Shown piece by piece: positions 13,655-25,049 of a DNA stretch of 64,000 nt. The position numbers and the translations under genes are program-made. Under the pieces are notes generated by a model that was not told where the DNA came from, did no database searches, and saw only the letters and a program-made list of their open reading frames with translations. How positions within the stretch are numbered: the first letter of the stretch is position 1; every line of letters starts with the position of its first letter. Origin of the DNA: a virus (lineage: Duplodnaviria > Caudoviricetes); the IMG/VR virus record IMGVR_UViG_3300029705_000009. The stretch is one strand, 5' to 3'.

Positions 13655-14968
13655 TTAGTTTAAAGAATCTTGAATAAGCTCTTGTTCTTCTTCTATATCC
13701 GGTGCGTCAGATGTATCTTTTATAATTCCTTCTAATACTTTAAAAGTAAAAGATTTTCTCTTAAAAGCAGTAAACTTACTTCTATTATCAATTCTGGCAA
13801 CAACACCTTCTGCCACATGTCTTGAATCTATCTCGTCCGGAATGTCAAGCCATTTATTTACTCTTTCGTTGAGATCATCTACTGTTGTAAATAAGAATTT
13901 GTCTAGAACAGGAACGAATTTACATCCCATTCTTTCACACCACATCTTGGTTTCTTCTGTAGGCAATTCAATAACAACACCATCTTCATTGGTCATCGTC
14001 ATTCTATAAACGTACATGTCGCTTTCGCCAGGTTCGCAACCATATGTAAATACAGTTTCCTTGCCATATATTTTTTCAAACTCTTTATCTTTTACTAGCT
14101 TATTGCTACATCTTCCCATAATAGGAGTCGTTTCATTTACCCAGCCTACAATTTCATAAAAAACGGTCATTCCTTTTGGTAGTTTGTCAGCAAAGAAATC
14201 ATGATATTTCTTTCTGAATTCATCATTACCGTAATAACCACCATCAAATTTCTTAAGAACAGTTCTTCTAGTACCGGATACCAGTTTGTATTCTTTTTTC
14301 TTCTTATCCTTTAAATTAAAAATCTTTTTCAATATAGGATTTCTGTGTTTTGTTGTTACCTGGATTGCTGCTTGTGTTCTACCGCTAGTTCCGTGCAGCT
14401 TTCTAGTTAAATAAACAATATCTCCATCTTTAAAGGCATGCAAATTATAATCAAGCTGTGATGTATCAATGTGCTCATCAAAATATGGATAAGACACCTC
14501 TTCTTTTTCAAATTTCTTTTTATGTTTTCCTTGACTGCCATCATGGATTCTCTGAGAATATGTTCTAGCTGGTATATATTTCTTACAAATCTCGTGACCA
14601 CCTAAAACAGTAATCTGATCACCATCTTTTAATTTTGAAATATCTGTATATTTTTCTAATACTCTTACTGGCAAAACCAAACCTTCAGACTTTTCGCCAC
14701 GTAATCTTATTGCAGTGATGTTACGTTTAGACGGATCCATATACCCACCTATGTTATTACCATTCTCATCCTTTTTACGAACAAGATTGTTATCGTTTGC
14801 AAACTCTTCAGATAATTGACCATCTGAAGGAAAGAACACAACCTGTTGACCTTCTTGATAAGATAAATCTACTATTACATTCTGACCAAATACTTCTACA
14901 CACTGCAAACGATCTGCATTACTATGTTTCCTTAGATTGTGTAATGTTGTAATGTAACCACAATACAT
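13655..14968 (-). CDS. ATP-dependent RNA ligase (Rnl2/DRB0094-like) with N-terminal OB-like domain
   Basis: N-terminal HSNADRLQ..RLRGEKSEG; motif I RKLHGTS; YEIVG; EGVV; FKRK. Confidence 0.82.
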   Translation of the reverse strand: MYCGYITTLHNLRKHSNADRLQCVEVFGQNVIVDLSYQEGQQVVFFPSDGQLSEEFANDNNLVRKKDENGNNIGGYMDPSKRNITAIRLRGEKSEGLVLPVRVLEKYTDISKLKDGDQITVLGGHEICKKYIPARTYSQRIHDGSQGKHKKKFEKEEVSYPYFDEHIDTSQLDYNLHAFKDGDIVYLTRKLHGTSGRTQAAIQVTTKHRNPILKKIFNLKDKKKKEYKLVSGTRRTVLKKFDGGYYGNDEFRKKYHDFFADKLPKGMTVFYEIVGWVNETTPIMGRCSNKLVKDKEFEKIYGKETVFTYGCEPGESDMYVYRMTMTNEDGVVIELPTEETKMWCERMGCKFVPVLDKFLFTTVDDLNERVNKWLDIPDEIDSRHVAEGVVARIDNRSKFTAFKRKSFTFKVLEGIIKDTSDAPDIEEEQELIQDSLN

Positions 14969-21232: not shown

Positions 21233-21306
21233 GTTCGCAACCAGGGGATGAACCTAGATTTCTTTCTTTGATCAGGAGAAAGCGTTTTGTCTTAAACTAC
21301 TGCGAA
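21233..21306 (-). tRNA. tRNA-like gene with 6-bp stem and 9-nt anticodon loop (CCTGATCAA)
   Basis: Acceptor TTCGCAG/TTGCGAA, D-arm GTTT/AAAC, T-arm CTAGG-TTCATCC-CCTGG. Confidence 0.6.
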
Positions 21307-21348: not shown

Positions 21349-21428
21349 CGGCAGTCTCCGGAATCGAACCAGTAATTGTATCTGCTTTTTATTGTCCAGA
21401 TATTGCTTTGCCATTAAGCTAAACTGCC
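21349..21428 (-). tRNA. tRNA-like gene with 12-nt anticodon loop
   Basis: Acceptor GGCAGTT/GACTGCC, D-arm GCTT/AAGC, TATCTG-GACAATAAAAAG-CAGATA, T-loop TTCGATT. Confidence 0.6.
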
Positions 21429-21962: not shown

Positions 21963-22022
21963 TAGGCACGTTTACATTATTGATTAACAGTCAATTGTAT
22001 TTATATTTGCTGCATGTGCCTA
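21963..22022 (-). ncRNA. Array unit: mini RNA with Asn(GTT) anticodon stem-loop
   Basis: TAGGCAC/GTGCCTA stem, ATGCAGCAAAT, ATTGA-CTGTTAA-TCAAT. Confidence 0.75.
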
Positions 22023-22028
22023 TATTGC

Positions 22029-22205
22029 TAGATACCATATATCAGAGTTTACTTAAATTTGCACCAAGCTACAGATTCGAACTGCCATCTTCTCCTTTAA
22101 AGGGAGACGTAATATTCTTGCGAATGCGCTTTGCCCTATTATACTATCTCGGTGGTTTCCTCATCATACTTTTTTACGCATTATTTATATCGCTGTTGGT
22201 ATCTA
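22029..22205 (-). ncRNA. Array unit enclosing a tRNA-like element with TTA (ochre) anticodon (22061-22154)
   Basis: TAGATACCA/TGGTATCTA stem, ACAGCGAT; inner CACCGAG/CTTGGTG, TCTCC-CTTTAAA-GGAGA, T-loop TTCGAAT, expanded D region. Confidence 0.65.
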
Positions 22206-22220
22206 TTTAATTTTATTTAG

Positions 22221-23771
22221 TTATACAATGTCTTTAACGGCATCCTCTACTACTTGGTATCTTTCGGAGTTAAGCTGTTCAACCAAACATTCAAACGGAT
22301 CGAGCTTTCCACTAAGTACCATCTTGCAGATAGCAGGGCTAAAACCAGACACTAACGCTACTGGGAAGTTTTCGTGCCGATTTACAGGCAAGGTACCGGT
22401 TCTACTACAAATGTTCCAGAATACAACACGAGGCATTTTGTAACCAGCATTAGTCCATTTCTGTTCAATTTCTCTGAATAAAGTATTTTTTACTCCCCAT
22501 CCACCACTATTATCTATTGCACATGAATCGAATTCCATATCTGATAAAATAAGAACATTTGTAGGAATATCTTCTTGGCTCATTTTCTTGCTAACGGCAG
22601 TCTTGAGTAATAAATCAAACACAGCTTCAATATTGGTATTGGCCACCTCATTATATCTAAGTGCAATCGCAATCTTTTCTCTTAAAGTCTTAGCTTGAGA
22701 AAAGTCTACTAATTGAGGTCTATGGCTAAAAGTAATGTAATTGTTCTTAAACTCTCCATTACTATGCTCTGCAAAATAAATTGCTAAAGCATTTGCAACA
22801 TCAAGACATGTCACATTGGTTCCACCAACTGTACTTTTCATACTTCCGGAGCCATCAGCAACACAAATCGTGTTTCCCTGACCCTTTACAAAGTCAGGAA
22901 GTGCTTTCCATAACTGCTCCAATGTAGTATCTACACCAGATTTTAAATATTGACCATAACCAGAACCAGTCATATAACTATGAACAATATCATGAGGGAA
23001 GTTAACAGAACTGTTAATCTTTACACCTTCATCTCCACGCTCTAAAGCTGCCAGATAAGCTCTACGTCTCTCTTCATCATTTCTTAAGAAAGCTCCATTG
23101 TAAATCAGATTCGCTCTTGAAGGTACTGTGTTATAGTCGATTTCACTCCACTCTTTCGCAGACATTTTAACTTCTACAACATTAAGATACTTACGAAGAG
23201 AAGAAAGTGTCTTTCGATAATTTCTCTCTGTCATATTAAGACCGGAATAAAGAATCCTTGCAAGTCTTCTGTTTCCCTTTGAGGAGCAATTAGTACTAGG
23301 CATCCATTTTGCCAAGAGTGAAATAGGCTTGTTTTCCATCTGATTAGCGCAGTCTTCCTCAAGCTGCATTGCAACCCAGGCTATAACATCTTCACGAAGT
23401 TTTGTATCAAGCAGACACCACATATCATCTACACGGCCATATTCCGGTGCTAAGCTAAACACTGCCTTTGCAATCTCAGGTTGTTCTGTTGCCAACCATT
23501 TCAGACACACTCTAAACAATCTTCTTTCGCCAATGCCTTCTCTTGCATCTCTGCAATAGAATAACCACTTTACGGCAAGCAGCTTGTCTTCATAGAAAGC
23601 CTTAGCAAAAGCATCTTCAATTGCTTTATCACTCTTATTTCTGAAAGATGTTACACCGAAATTAATATCTAACAGCTTTCTTCCGGATGTGCCAAATCCT
23701 AACGCTCCATTTTCTGTAATGGAAAAGCTATTCTGATCTAGTGTTGTTTTTAAATTATTCATAAAACTCAT
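22221..23771 (-). CDS. DUF2828-family TROVE/Ro60-like protein with C-terminal VWA (MIDAS) domain
   Basis: TENGA, RDAREGIGER, LAKWMPS, DGSGSM, ILSDMEFD, VFWNI, LVSGFS; start at MSFMNN after AAGGAGA. Confidence 0.88.
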   Translation of the reverse strand: MSFMNNLKTTLDQNSFSITENGALGFGTSGRKLLDINFGVTSFRNKSDKAIEDAFAKAFYEDKLLAVKWLFYCRDAREGIGERRLFRVCLKWLATEQPEIAKAVFSLAPEYGRVDDMWCLLDTKLREDVIAWVAMQLEEDCANQMENKPISLLAKWMPSTNCSSKGNRRLARILYSGLNMTERNYRKTLSSLRKYLNVVEVKMSAKEWSEIDYNTVPSRANLIYNGAFLRNDEERRRAYLAALERGDEGVKINSSVNFPHDIVHSYMTGSGYGQYLKSGVDTTLEQLWKALPDFVKGQGNTICVADGSGSMKSTVGGTNVTCLDVANALAIYFAEHSNGEFKNNYITFSHRPQLVDFSQAKTLREKIAIALRYNEVANTNIEAVFDLLLKTAVSKKMSQEDIPTNVLILSDMEFDSCAIDNSGGWGVKNTLFREIEQKWTNAGYKMPRVVFWNICSRTGTLPVNRHENFPVALVSGFSPAICKMVLSGKLDPFECLVEQLNSERYQVVEDAVKDIV

Positions 23772-23816: not shown

Positions 23817-23868
23817 AAGATACATTTGATAGATTTGCAGTCTAATTTTTATTTGCTGTTAGTATCTT
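23817..23868 (-). ncRNA. Array unit: mini RNA with Cys(GCA) anticodon stem-loop
   Basis: AAGATAC/GTATCTT stem, TAACAGCAAAT, TAGA-CTGCAAA-TCTA. Confidence 0.75.
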
Positions 23869-23880
23869 AGAAATTAATAA

Positions 23881-23998
23881 GCGGAGAGTGTGGGACTCGA
23901 ACCCACGACAACAGGCTCCCTAAGCAATATAAAATTGCAGTATAAGTCTTTCTCAAGACTCGTTTTTTTCTGTGCTCTACCAACTGAGCTAACCTCCG
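23881..23998 (-). tRNA. tRNA-Pro(AGG)-like with 44-nt insertion (23926-23969) in anticodon stem
   Basis: D-arm GCTC/GAGC, CAG[insert]GC-TTAGGGA-GCCTG, T-arm GTGGG-TTCGAGT-CCCAC; insert is hairpin + ATACTGCAATTTT. Confidence 0.8.
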
Positions 23999-24003
23999 CA
24001 TAT

Positions 24004-24121
24004 CAGAGAGGGTAAGATTCGAACTTACGACCTACGGGTTAACAGCCATTGTAAAATTGCAGTTTAAGTCTTTGACAAGACCCGATTATTACGTTGCTCT
24101 ATCCAGCTGAGCTACCTCTCT
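24004..24121 (-). tRNA. tRNA-Asn(GTT) with 44-nt insertion (24048-24091) in anticodon stem
   Basis: AGAGAGG/CCTCTCT G73, ACG[insert]GG-CTGTTAA-CCCGT, canonical D and T arms. Confidence 0.85.
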
Positions 24122-24124
24122 GAG

Positions 24125-24251
24125 TGGGGAAAGAATGGATTCGAACCATCGAAGCATAATGCGAGAGATTTACAGTCTTCACAAATTGCAGTTAATGTCT
24201 AACTAGACATGTTCTCCGTTCTCTTGGGTTTGTCCACTTCCCTATTTCCCC
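24125..24251 (-). tRNA. tRNA-Tyr(GTA) with 44-nt insertion (24178-24221) in anticodon stem
   Basis: GGGGAAA/TTTCCCC A73, AGA[insert]GA-CTGTAAA-TCTCT, long variable arm GCA-TTA-TGC. Confidence 0.85.
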
Positions 24252-24264
24252 ATATTTAGTTTTC

Positions 24265-24327
24265 TAGTCGCCATAAAAACTTATCAGATCCCTAATCAGA
24301 TGTTTTTAATGTTGCTGTAAGCGACTA
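24265..24327 (-). ncRNA. Array unit: mini RNA with Pro(AGG) anticodon loop
   Basis: TAGTCGC/GCGACTA stem, TTACAGCAAC, ATCTGA-TTAGGGA-TCTGAT. Confidence 0.72.
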
Positions 24328-24330
24328 ACT

Positions 24331-24387
24331 AGATGCTTTTGAATTACAATTTAAAAGATTGTTCCAATAAAATTGCTGTATGCATCT
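24331..24387 (-). ncRNA. Array unit: mini RNA with Lys(TTT) anticodon stem-loop
   Basis: AGATGC/GCATCT stem, ATACAGCAATTTT, ACAAT-CTTTTAA-ATTGT. Confidence 0.75.
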
Positions 24388-24389
24388 GA

Positions 24390-24502
24390 AGACGTGAGAC
24401 GGAGTTGAACCATCATCTGTGCCTTGGCTTCCTTTAATTTGCTGTTTGAGTTAAACTAAACTCTTTATTCGGAGCACCGTGCTACCATTGCACCATCACG
24501 CC
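24390..24502 (-). tRNA. tRNA-Gly(GCC)-like with ~42-nt insertion (24431-24472) in anticodon arm
   Basis: GGCGTGA/TCACGTC U73, D-arm GTGC/GCAC, GTGCT[insert]AAGCCAA-GGCAC; insert is hairpin + AAACAGCAAAT. Confidence 0.72.
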
Positions 24503-24507
24503 ATATC

Positions 24508-24582
24508 AAAGCGGTTTGAGGTATTGTCGTTTTCCTCTCATTAATGTTTTCTGGAGACAAAATATCTTGCTGTAACCGCTTT
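24508..24582 (-). ncRNA. Array unit (stem + ACAGCAA; possible Trp-like CTCCAGA loop, weak)
   Basis: AAAGCGGTT/AACCGCTTT stem, ACAGCAAG. Confidence 0.6.
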
Positions 24583-24589
24583 TAATTAC

Positions 24590-24655
24590 TAGACAGATTA
24601 AAATATATAATATGTATTCTGGCATATATTCTTTAAATGTTGCTACTTCTGTCTA
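24590..24655 (-). ncRNA. Array unit (divergent motif TAGCAA, internal hairpin)
   Basis: TAGACAGA/TCTGTCTA stem, AGTAGCAAC, ATATG-CCAGAATA-CATAT. Confidence 0.55.
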
Positions 24656-24657
24656 AA

Positions 24658-24729
24658 CAGGGCTAGCTGGATTCGAACCAGCGACTGCAGCAGTCAAAGT
24701 GCTGTGCCTTACCGCTTGGCGATAGCCCT
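24658..24729 (-). tRNA. tRNA-Gln(TTG)
   Basis: Canonical cloverleaf, CAGCA-CTTTGAC-TGCTG. Confidence 0.95.
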
Positions 24730-24927
24730 ATAAATTCTGGTGGTTCTTTTACATCTACCACCAAAGATGTATCATAAGAAAGGAGGTACGTTTGCAAGAA
24801 GCAAACCAAACTTTAGGAATATGTCGTAATAATAGGCTTTTATTGCACACTTTCGTTTTTGTGTGTAATTTTATTTACCTACGATTGTTTTTTTGAGGAC
24901 TTAATGTCCTCAATCTCAACTGTACTT

Positions 24928-24956
24928 AGTCTACCATACTATGCAATAATTGTCAA
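24928..24956 (-). promoter_or_regulatory. Sigma-A-type promoter facing the RNA array
   Basis: TTGACA-17 nt-TAGACT with TG extension. Confidence 0.7.
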
Positions 24957-25020
24957 TACACTTTTTGATATTTAATTTTATTTACCTATTACCAAAAAAA
25001 AATAATTTCCTGATGAAACT

Positions 25021-25049
25021 ATACTACCACGGCTAACACATATTGTCAA
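25021..25049 (-). promoter_or_regulatory. Second tandem sigma-A-type promoter
   Basis: TTGACA-17 nt-TAGTAT with TG extension. Confidence 0.7.

What the first reader, a model, noticed from the sequence alone, without database searches (positions are those of the whole stretch)
23881..24251. Three consecutive tRNA genes (Pro-AGG, Asn-GTT, Tyr-GTA) each interrupted by a 44-nt insert at the same anticodon-stem position
Removing 23926-23969, 24048-24091 and 24178-24221 (each exactly 44 nt, between tRNA positions 29 and 30) restores perfect 5-bp stems and 7-nt loops: CAGGC-TTAGGGA-GCCTG, ACGGG-CTGTTAA-CCCGT, AGAGA-CTGTAAA-TCTCT. The Tyr boundary could slide 2 nt. Each insert consists of a purine/A-rich linker, a short hairpin (GAGTCTT-GAGA-AAGACTT, GGGTCTT-GTCA-AAGACTT, ATGTCT-AGTT-AGACAT) and WWACTGCAATTT. 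This is a circular permutation of the free-standing array unit. Identity elements still match the anticodons (Tyr long variable arm and A73, Asn G73, Pro C1:G72). Bacterial tRNA introns are normally large group I introns in the loop, so these do not fit. Inference: either a new class of tiny protein-spliced tRNA intron, or unspliced tRNA-shaped RNAs carrying a docking site for the DUF2828 protein.
Basis: partly seen in the sequence, partly recalled or inferred. Interest (0 to 1): 0.9.

Follow-up and report, generated by a model that had tools for sequence, protein, structure and literature searches.

The report
Anticodon-displaying partner RNAs, not introns
The three 44-base inserts in this gut phage's tRNA-shaped genes are real, but they are most likely a protein-binding handle rather than introns: they turn tRNAs into look-alikes that show an anticodon loop while docked on the Ro60-like ring protein encoded next door, probably as part of the phage's defence against host enzymes that cut tRNAs.

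Summary
Observation confirmed: removing the three 44-nt inserts gives Pro-AGG, Asn-GTT and Tyr-GTA cloverleafs. The intron reading is unlikely (~10%). The insert is a handle (7-bp helix, 2 nt, ACWGCAA) found on 206 distinct tRNA-shaped RNAs in phages and gut Clostridia, tied to a DUF2828 gene (40/50 contigs versus 3/48 controls) whose model has the Ro60 fold. The split anticodon arm is selected (93/206 give 5 bp + 7 nt; null about 15). But the site is 28/29 or 29/30, length 37-60 nt, with no BHB, ruler, EndA or insert-free allele, and aminoacylation identity is mostly lost (29/75 versus 123/140). Free-standing handle RNAs without acceptor, D or T arm display the same 7-nt loops (66/157; null 14) and cannot be spliced into tRNAs. 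Best reading: unspliced Y-RNA-like partners that display anticodon loops on a Ro60-like ring, in a counter-defence/tRNA-repair module (a 34% identical homolog counters the ppl defence; RNA ligases are linked). Binding, expression and the decoy role are inferred; no RNA runs were listed. This scan found the family before in at least 14 other genomes; I found no paper describing it.

The parts
24125..24251 (-). Tyr-derived tRNA-shaped RNA (long variable arm, A73) with handle in the 5' strand of the anticodon stem; loop shows GTA
   Evidence: relatives L002, L326, L328 keep it with 37-43 nt inserts
24178..24221 (-). 44-nt insert of the Tyr-like RNA: linker, 6-bp hairpin 24195-24210, motif 24186-24192, linker; boundaries can slide
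24004..24121 (-). Asn-like tRNA-shaped RNA (G73) with handle at 29/30; loop 24039-24045 shows GTT. The same slot reads GGT or TTT in relatives
24048..24091 (-). 44-nt insert of the Asn-like RNA: 7-bp hairpin 24066-24083, motif 24057-24063
23881..23998 (-). Pro-like tRNA-shaped RNA with handle at 29/30; loop 23917-23923 shows AGG with G37; bulged acceptor stem, C73
23926..23969 (-). 44-nt insert of the Pro-like RNA: 7-bp hairpin 23944-23961, motif 23935-23941
24390..24502 (-). Fourth tRNA-shaped handle RNA (Gly-GCC-like): full 5-bp stem, about 42 nt with the handle inside the loop, no U33
24589..24656 (-). Free-standing handle unit directly after tRNA-Gln (closing helix, variant motif)
24508..24582 (-). 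Free-standing handle unit (closing helix + ACAGCAA)
24331..24387 (-). Free-standing handle unit displaying a 5-bp Lys-TTT anticodon stem-loop; no acceptor, D or T arm
24265..24327 (-). Free-standing handle unit displaying the same 7-nt AGG loop as the Pro-like RNA (stem with one mismatch)
   Evidence: read from the sequence
23817..23868 (-). Free-standing handle unit displaying a Cys-GCA stem-loop, 46 nt before the DUF2828 start codon
22221..23771 (-). DUF2828 + DUF7788 gene, 516 aa; Ro60-like helical ring + vWA with DxSxS; inferred binding partner
22029..22205 (-). Handle helix (ACAGCGA variant) enclosing a whole tRNA body with a TTA anticodon loop and a D-loop hairpin
21963..22022 (-). Free-standing handle unit displaying a 5-bp Asn-GTT stem-loop
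21829..21917 (-). Handle unit with Cys-GCA stem-loop plus a T arm, no D arm
24657..24730 (-). Ordinary tRNA-Gln(TTG) at the head of the array
24928..25049 (-). Two sigma-70-like sites (10/12, extended -10) upstream of the array; consensus matches only, region total not above chance; no terminator-like site before the DUF2828 gene
13655..14968 (-). ATP-dependent RNA ligase (PF09414 with PHA02142 OB fold), 7 kb downstream; adjacent to DUF2828 in close relatives

Best explanation
The three genes make unspliced ~120-nt RNAs. Each is a tRNA body (cut out of one long transcript by normal tRNA end-processing, inferred) whose anticodon stem carries a side branch: a 7-bp hairpin followed by ACWGCAA. 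That branch is the binding handle for the neighbouring Ro60-like DUF2828 ring, as the stem and motif of Y RNAs are for Ro60 (inferred). The anticodon stem still forms across the branch point (2-3 bp before, 3-2 bp after), so a normal-looking 7-nt anticodon loop is displayed 11-13 nt after the motif. The free-standing units do the same without a tRNA body. The RNAs are not kept for charging or decoding. The particle most likely works against host defences that attack tRNA: it presents anticodon loops as bait or competitive inhibitor for anticodon nucleases (my preferred function, about 0.4 overall), or gates and positions the ring in a tRNA-repair module with the linked RNA ligase (about 0.3). 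Shown: sequence, covariation, gene linkage, fold model, loss of identity elements. Inferred: transcription, binding, absence of splicing, function.
For: Family of 206 clusters with the handle in the anticodon arm; handle helix pairs 6-7/7 in 170/206 with many pair types; all six helices covary in 15 syntenic genes, 96% paired, 0/500 shuffles, slid registers 33-47%. Split arm with exactly 5 bp + 7 nt in 93/206, null 15, other loop sizes 7-19. Body-less units show 7-nt U33/R37 stem-loops in 66/157, null 14, max 28, including five units in this window. Identity rules met 29/75 versus 123/140 in ordinary tRNAs of the same loci, p 1e-13; only slightly above acceptor-shuffled values (29 versus 21.5 +/- 3.4). 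Syntenic slots swap anticodons (GTT/GGT/TTT; AGG/TGG/GTG) and acceptor stems; Tyr-type long-arm bodies carry GAA. DUF2828 in 40/50 contigs found by the RNA pattern (12/12 near-complete) versus 3/48 controls (1/22). Model pLDDT 84; the 13 best Foldseek hits are all Ro60/TROVE; Z 16.2 over 411 residues to 1yvp. Bas63 gp130, 34% identical over the full length with three handle RNAs downstream, counters the ppl defence (PMC11482910). An RNA ligase is present in 10/12 near-complete genomes (one weak), often within 1-6 kb of DUF2828. [quoted passage not shown]
Against: No expression or binding data. ViennaRNA gives the split anticodon arm about 0-1% pairing probability in the naked RNA, so it must be held by tertiary structure or protein; an intron would explain its conservation without that assumption. 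This window's Asn and Tyr products keep plausible identity elements, and Tyr keeps them in four of five relatives. Position 34 is G or T in 89%, as in real tRNAs. A ligase is at hand. Bas63 gp130 rescued T7 on ppl from a plasmid without its RNAs, so the RNAs are not needed for that activity. The anticodon bias may be a founder effect; clusters are not phylogenetically independent and the sample is biased by my search patterns.
Confidence: 0.78

Rival explanations
1. New class of short protein-spliced tRNA intron, possibly conditional: DUF2828 binds the handle, an unknown nuclease cuts at both ends of the insert, and the phage RNA ligase joins the halves, giving working tRNAs for at least some genes (Tyr, Asn).
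For: Exact restoration of a 5-bp/7-nt arm in 93/206 family members; loops obey U33, purine 37, T36-A37 (58/61) and G36-G37 (18/19); some junction bias, G before and T-A-A after the 5' boundary, T before and G after the 3' boundary; ligase in 10/12 genomes; the split arm is unstable unspliced; insert-free tRNAs with the same anticodon arm exist.
Against: Site 28/29 (38) or 29/30 (35), length 37-60 nt, motif-to-boundary distance 3-19 nt; BHB helix in 1/93; no EndA in 18 records; 113/206 do not restore a short-arm tRNA this way, and close relatives have 6-, 8- or 9-nt loops or none; products mostly lack identity elements; body-less units show the same loops and cannot yield tRNAs; no insert-free allele of the Tyr or Pro gene, best identity of any product to an insert-free tRNA 82%.
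Confidence: 0.1
2. Regulatory leader: the array is a stack of binding sites by which DUF2828 controls its own operon or senses tRNA-nuclease attack; cleavage of the displayed loops frees the protein or changes expression.
For: Nine units lie between the promoter-like sites and the start codon with no terminator-like site; the last unit ends 46 nt before the ATG.
Against: Units also lie downstream of the gene, here and in Bas63, and many kb away in other contigs. Intact acceptor stems, T arms and Levitt pairs (94%) suggest release as separate RNAs.
Confidence: 0.06
3. The unspliced RNAs are charged and decode on the ribosome with the branch sticking out, as nuclease-resistant tRNAs.
For: Elbow elements and 5-bp geometry conserved; real-looking anticodons.
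Against: Identity elements lost. A 44-nt branch at 29/30 should clash with the 30S P site, where pairs 29-41 and 30-40 contact 16S rRNA (own knowledge).
Confidence: 0.03
4. Decayed tRNA pseudogenes hit by a small mobile repeat.
For: Bulged acceptor in the Pro-like gene; some relatives have degenerate arms.
Against: Compensatory changes in every helix, strict 7-nt loop preference, tight link to an intact gene.
Confidence: 0.03

Closest known systems
Bacterial and phage Ro60 (Rsr) with YrlA-type Y RNAs (Rfam RF02553; Chen et al. 2014, PMC4201824); Thermus phage phiLo Ro60 with Yrl1/Yrl2 (PMC12135203)
   Same: Several small RNAs next to, and on the same strand as, a Ro60-fold gene; a short helix with an adjacent motif as likely protein site; a tRNA-like module; link to RNA ligases (as in Salmonella rsr-yrlBA-rtcBA).
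   Different: Protein is DUF2828/DUF7788, 12-14% identical to Ro60, no TROVE Pfam hit. Motif is ACWGCAA, not GNCGAA (4/206). The tRNA body is in normal order with free ends, not circularly permuted. An anticodon loop is kept and displayed, whereas in YrlA the Ro stem takes the place of the anticodon arm. Rfam score 25-32 against a cut-off of 69.
Bas63 (JohannRWettstein) gp130, PhageMaP preprint PMC11482910
   Same: Same protein family (34% identity, E 2e-85); authors note Ro60 likeness and suggest nearby tRNA genes may be Y RNAs; three handle RNAs lie downstream.
   Different: The preprint identifies no RNA, motif or anticodon display; anti-ppl activity was seen without cognate RNAs; Bas63 units are of the closing-helix type.
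'Enigmatic' tRNA introns of Lak megaphages (Devoto et al. 2019, PMC6784885)
   Same: Unexplained inserts in phage tRNA genes, too small for group I.
   Different: The Lak examples read here are in the anticodon loop (e.g. 93 nt in Tyr, with a T-arm), and insert-free alleles exist; here the insert is in the stem, carries a protein handle and no insert-free allele was found.
Archaeal BHB tRNA introns at noncanonical sites such as 29/30 (own knowledge)
   Same: Short insert in the anticodon stem whose removal restores the cloverleaf.
   Different: No bulge-helix-bulge (1/93), no EndA in the phage records, bacterial host.
Class I RNAs of dictyostelid amoebae (Kjellin et al. 2021, PMC7919456; Rfam RF01414)
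   Same: About 60-nt RNAs with a 6-bp closing stem, an unpaired motif right after its 5' strand (T, C, C, A, A at positions 3, 6, 9, 10, 11) and a variable interior: the layout of the free-standing units.
   Different: Eukaryotic, no tRNA bodies, reported partner is an RRM protein; no RF01414 match in my scans. A lead only.

Membership tests
YrlA Y RNA (RF02553) | Within 4 kb of a Ro60 ortholog, same strand | tested here: met
   0.1-0.5 kb upstream of a gene whose model has the Ro60 fold; orthology in the strict sense not shown
YrlA Y RNA (RF02553) | GNCGAA Ro-binding motif | tested here: not met
   4 of 206 family RNAs; motif here is ACWGCAA
YrlA Y RNA (RF02553) | Circularly permuted tRNA domain (T arm, acceptor stem, D arm) closed by the Ro stem | tested here: not met
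   Normal order with free ends in all three genes; weak Rfam hits span two adjacent genes
YrlA Y RNA (RF02553) | Rfam gathering score 69 bits | tested here: not met
   24-25 bits in the window, at most 32.5 in related loci
Y RNAs (functional definition) | Bound by the Ro60-type protein in vivo | not testable with these tools
   Inferred from co-occurrence only
Ro60/TROVE proteins | Helical-repeat ring closed by a vWA domain with MIDAS motif | tested here: met
   TM 0.52-0.59 to Ro60 entries, Z 16.2 over 411 residues, rmsd 4.5; D-x-S-x-S invariant
Ro60/TROVE proteins | Pfam TROVE domain match | tested here: not met
   Only PF11443 and PF25043 at E <= 0.001
Protein-spliced tRNA introns (archaea, eukaryotes) | Bulge-helix-bulge at the junctions | tested here: not met
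   Central 4-bp helix in 1 of 93 (Asn gene included); Pro and Tyr fail by inspection; relaxed BHB forms not tested
Protein-spliced tRNA introns (archaea, eukaryotes) | EndA/TSEN endonuclease available | tested here: not met
   PF01974 in 0 of 18 handle-bearing phage records; control rings only in archaea. This phage's full genome is not held
Protein-spliced tRNA introns (archaea, eukaryotes) | Fixed site or ruler geometry | tested here: not met
   28/29 and 29/30 about equally; 37-60 nt; 3-19 nt from motif to boundary
Any tRNA intron | Spliced RNA observed | not testable with these tools
   No RNA holder listed
Any tRNA intron | Excision gives a canonical cloverleaf | tested here: met
   All three genes; 93/206 of the family
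Any tRNA intron | Product carries identity elements of its anticodon | tested here: inconclusive
   Asn G73 and Tyr A73 + long arm present, Pro lacks A73; family 29/75 versus 123/140. Rules from textbook knowledge
Group I introns in bacterial tRNAs | Catalytic core of 200 nt or more in the anticodon loop | tested here: not met
   44 nt, in the stem; no Rfam intron match
Lak-type phage tRNA introns | Insert-free alleles of the same gene | tested here: inconclusive
   None found by exact joint patterns; 7 hits of a generic pattern are ordinary tRNAs 70-80% identical
Dictyostelid Class I RNA (RF01414) | Rfam model match | tested here: not met
   No match at E <= 5 in the window region or E <= 1 in five loci; layout similar by description

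The most novel reading that the evidence does not exclude
The handle is also a splicing signal: DUF2828 holds these RNAs as inactive reserve tRNAs and, with an unidentified nuclease and the phage ligase, excises the ~44-nt branch to release working tRNAs (at least Tyr and Asn) when host tRNAs are destroyed. That would be a protein-guided tRNA intron class in bacteria and their phages.
Probability: 0.08. Interest if true: 0.92.

Novelty: new variant of a known kind. Interest (0 to 1): 0.66.

Why it matters
DUF2828 is in 705 annotated phage records across Escherichia, Mycobacterium, Listeria, Staphylococcus, Vibrio and others, and one member is a tested counter-defence factor, yet I found no paper that names its RNA partners. 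The handle gives a concrete binding site to test. The new point here is that both RNA layouts select for a displayed 7-nt anticodon loop while dropping aminoacylation identity. That suggests phages keep a library of anticodon look-alikes on a Ro60-type ring, a direct and testable idea for what bacterial Y-type RNAs do with their tRNA mimicry, an open question since 2014. It also warns that tRNA finders with intron mode mis-annotate these genes as intron-containing tRNAs.

Tried and rejected
No whole genome is held. The look-up of sequencing runs listed no RNA holder, so no reads were laid; this is no evidence either way. Paper searches for DUF2828, phage tRNA introns, YrlA/Ro60 in phages and anticodon decoys found no description of this RNA family; Burroughs and Aravind 2016 (ROT/TROVE systems) was not held, so I cannot say whether it covers DUF2828. 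Rfam gave only tRNA and sub-threshold YrlA hits. Pairing between the two linkers of the insert is no better than shuffled partners (3.24 versus 3.22), so I dropped a four-way-junction model. A32 is enriched (32% versus 1%), but ordinary Thr-GGT and His tRNAs with A32 exist, so I do not use it against function. The Ser/Leu long-arm rule was removed from the identity test because my filter admitted only short arms. Exact-joint scans for insert-free Tyr and Pro alleles found none; exact patterns miss diverged alleles. Controls are smaller contigs on average; among contigs of 90 kb or more the counts are 16/19 versus 3/11. No complex prediction was run: the tool does not score RNA partners.

Full report
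Observation. The three elements are on the minus strand, head to tail with spacers of 3-5 nt. Removing 23926-23969, 24048-24091 and 24178-24221 gives ARAGORN calls for Pro(agg), Asn(gtt) and Tyr(gta) with perfect 5-bp stems and 7-nt loops. Each insert is linker, 6-7 bp hairpin, 2 nt, ACTGCAA, linker; the hairpin-plus-motif pattern is far above chance (3 versus 0.03). Pro and Asn are fixed at 29/30; Tyr slides. The Pro-like acceptor is bulged and ends in C73. A fourth gene (Gly-GCC-like, 24390-24502) carries the handle inside its loop.

Surroundings. The window is phage-like (DNA polymerase III alpha, primase-helicase, integrase); the neighbouring protein is on a contig of up to 275 kb and its closest genome matches are gut Clostridia, so a large phage of Clostridia is inferred. 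The genes sit in an array of twelve handle units around a 516-aa DUF2828/DUF7788 gene (22221-23771). In free-standing units the helix closes the RNA (5' strand, 2 nt, motif, interior, 3' strand). In both layouts an anticodon-like stem-loop follows the motif: Lys-TTT, Pro-AGG, Cys-GCA (twice) and Asn-GTT in units that have no acceptor or D arm. Two sigma-70-like sites precede the array and no terminator-like site interrupts it (weak evidence). An RNA ligase gene lies 7 kb downstream.

The protein. The AlphaFold model (pLDDT 84) matches Ro60 over its whole length: the 13 best Foldseek hits are Ro60/TROVE structures and an independent aligner gives Z 16.2 over 411 residues at 12% identity. It is 34% identical to Bas63 gp130, which the PhageMaP preprint shows to counter the ppl defence and likens to Ro60 (PMC11482910); Bas63 has three handle RNAs downstream. 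The family is in 705 annotated phage records.

The RNA family. From loci found by protein and by RNA pattern I extracted 347 tRNA bodies with the handle in the anticodon arm, 206 clusters at 85% identity. The handle helix pairs 6-7 of 7 in 170 of them with many pair types. Of 50 contigs found by the RNA pattern alone, 40 encode DUF2828 (12/12 near-complete); of 48 contigs with an ordinary tRNA-Asn, 3 do (1/22) (16/19 versus 3/11 for contigs of 90 kb or more). In 15 syntenic genes all six helices, including both halves of the split anticodon stem, show compensatory change. This is not decay.

The split arm is selected: 93/206 give exactly 5 bp and a 7-nt loop with the break after pair 1-3, against about 15 in shuffles and 7-19 for other loop sizes. 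Loops have U33 (86%), purine 37 (92%), T36-A37 (58/61) and G36-G37 (18/19). Ordinary tRNAs with the same arm exist, so the RNAs derive from real tRNAs. An RNA ligase (Rnl2-type or RtcB) is in 10 of 12 near-complete genomes, often next to DUF2828.

What argues against splicing. (a) Geometry is not fixed: 28/29 in 38, 29/30 in 35, inserts of 37-60 nt, 3-19 nt from motif to boundary. In the closest relatives the Pro slot has 42-48 nt, the Asn slot 44-45 nt at either site, the Tyr slot 37-43 nt. (b) No BHB (1/93) and no EndA (0/18). (c) 113/206 do not restore an arm this way; 49 hold the handle inside a closed 5-bp stem, mostly without U33, and close relatives differ by 6-, 8- or 9-nt loops. (d) Products would mostly be mischarged or uncharged: textbook identity rules are met in 29/75 against 123/140 for ordinary tRNAs in the same loci (p 1e-13), barely above acceptor-shuffled values. 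The Pro-AGG loop is kept in relatives whose acceptor stems all differ; the Asn slot reads GTT, GGT or TTT; Tyr-type bodies carry GAA. (e) Body-less units show the same preference for 7-nt U33/R37 loops (66/157; null 14; other sizes at null) and can never become tRNAs. (f) No insert-free allele was found. The constant feature is handle plus displayed anticodon loop; the tRNA body is optional and its acceptor needs only to pair.

Mechanism. Inferred: one transcript is cut into separate RNAs by RNase P and 3' processing at the intact acceptor stems; DUF2828 binds helix plus motif; the anticodon stem stacks across the branch point, helped by the tRNA elbow and the protein (unaided folding does not favour it); the loop is presented outward. 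The likeliest use is against tRNA-targeting defences. The commonest anticodons (Asn, Lys, Thr, Pro) overlap the AriB targets and U39 of the AriB site is under-represented, which fits a poorly cleaved competitor, but a founder effect could give the same bias. The alternative use is to gate or tether the ring in a repair module with the ligase and, in relatives, a KTI12/AAA_33 kinase, like the Salmonella rsr-yrlBA-rtcBA operon. That gp130 works without its RNAs in one assay favours a regulatory or accessory role for the RNAs.

Comparison. It works like Ro60 with Y RNAs but is not YrlA: other motif, normal tRNA order, anticodon loop kept, Rfam score far below cut-off. It is not a group I, BHB or (on present evidence) Lak-type intron. 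The free-standing layout resembles dictyostelid Class I RNAs by description, untested beyond a negative Rfam scan.

Verdict. Real and conserved; a new variant of the Ro60/Y-RNA kind, not described in the papers I could search. This scan has noted the family in at least 14 other genomes; those notes are not independent evidence. Unspliced partner RNA 0.78, spliced intron 0.10. Interest 0.66.

Noticed in passing
window:22029-22205 (-): Handle helix enclosing a tRNA body whose 5-bp arm shows a TTA (ochre-reading) loop and whose D loop has an extra hairpin; the arm is identical in L002:6557 and L325:4108.
   Followed up: partly
window:20654-20726, 21233-21306, 21349-21428 (-): Three tRNA bodies with altered anticodon arms and no handle; relatives (L324:5651, L001:3692, L327:5483) have similar bodies with 4-6 nt or odd loops.
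   Followed up: no
window:15658-19948 (-): Phage-encoded ABC-transporter-like cluster: NMT1-like binding protein fused to OmpA, ABC ATPase and permease, between the RNA island and the RNA ligase.
   Followed up: no
L321, L323, L324, L326, L327 upstream of DUF2828; L325:4439-5368: A ~303-aa KTI12/AAA_33 kinase (faint HD) is a regular neighbour of DUF2828 in close relatives, with the PHA02142 RNA ligase downstream: a possible end-healing and sealing pair. Not seen among the window proteins I scanned.
   Followed up: no
L322:570-1496, L325:1083-1766, L327:3964-4602, L328:1-886: HTH- or HNH-type ORFs inserted within or beside the RNA array in relatives, possibly homing endonucleases.
   Followed up: no
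L161-L240 (genome contigs): 59 of 80 DUF2828 loci in bacterial genome assemblies, mostly gut Clostridia, carry handle-bearing tRNA bodies; prophage versus host origin not checked.
   Followed up: partly
G001-G048: Rnl2-type ligase and RtcB are mutually exclusive in the 12 near-complete handle-bearing phage genomes (6 and 4), suggesting interchangeable repair partners.
   Followed up: partly
L455:276-350: Insert-free tRNA with an AGG anticodon and the same split-arm-type stem sequence; acceptor lacks Pro identity.
   Followed up: no
   Followed up: no
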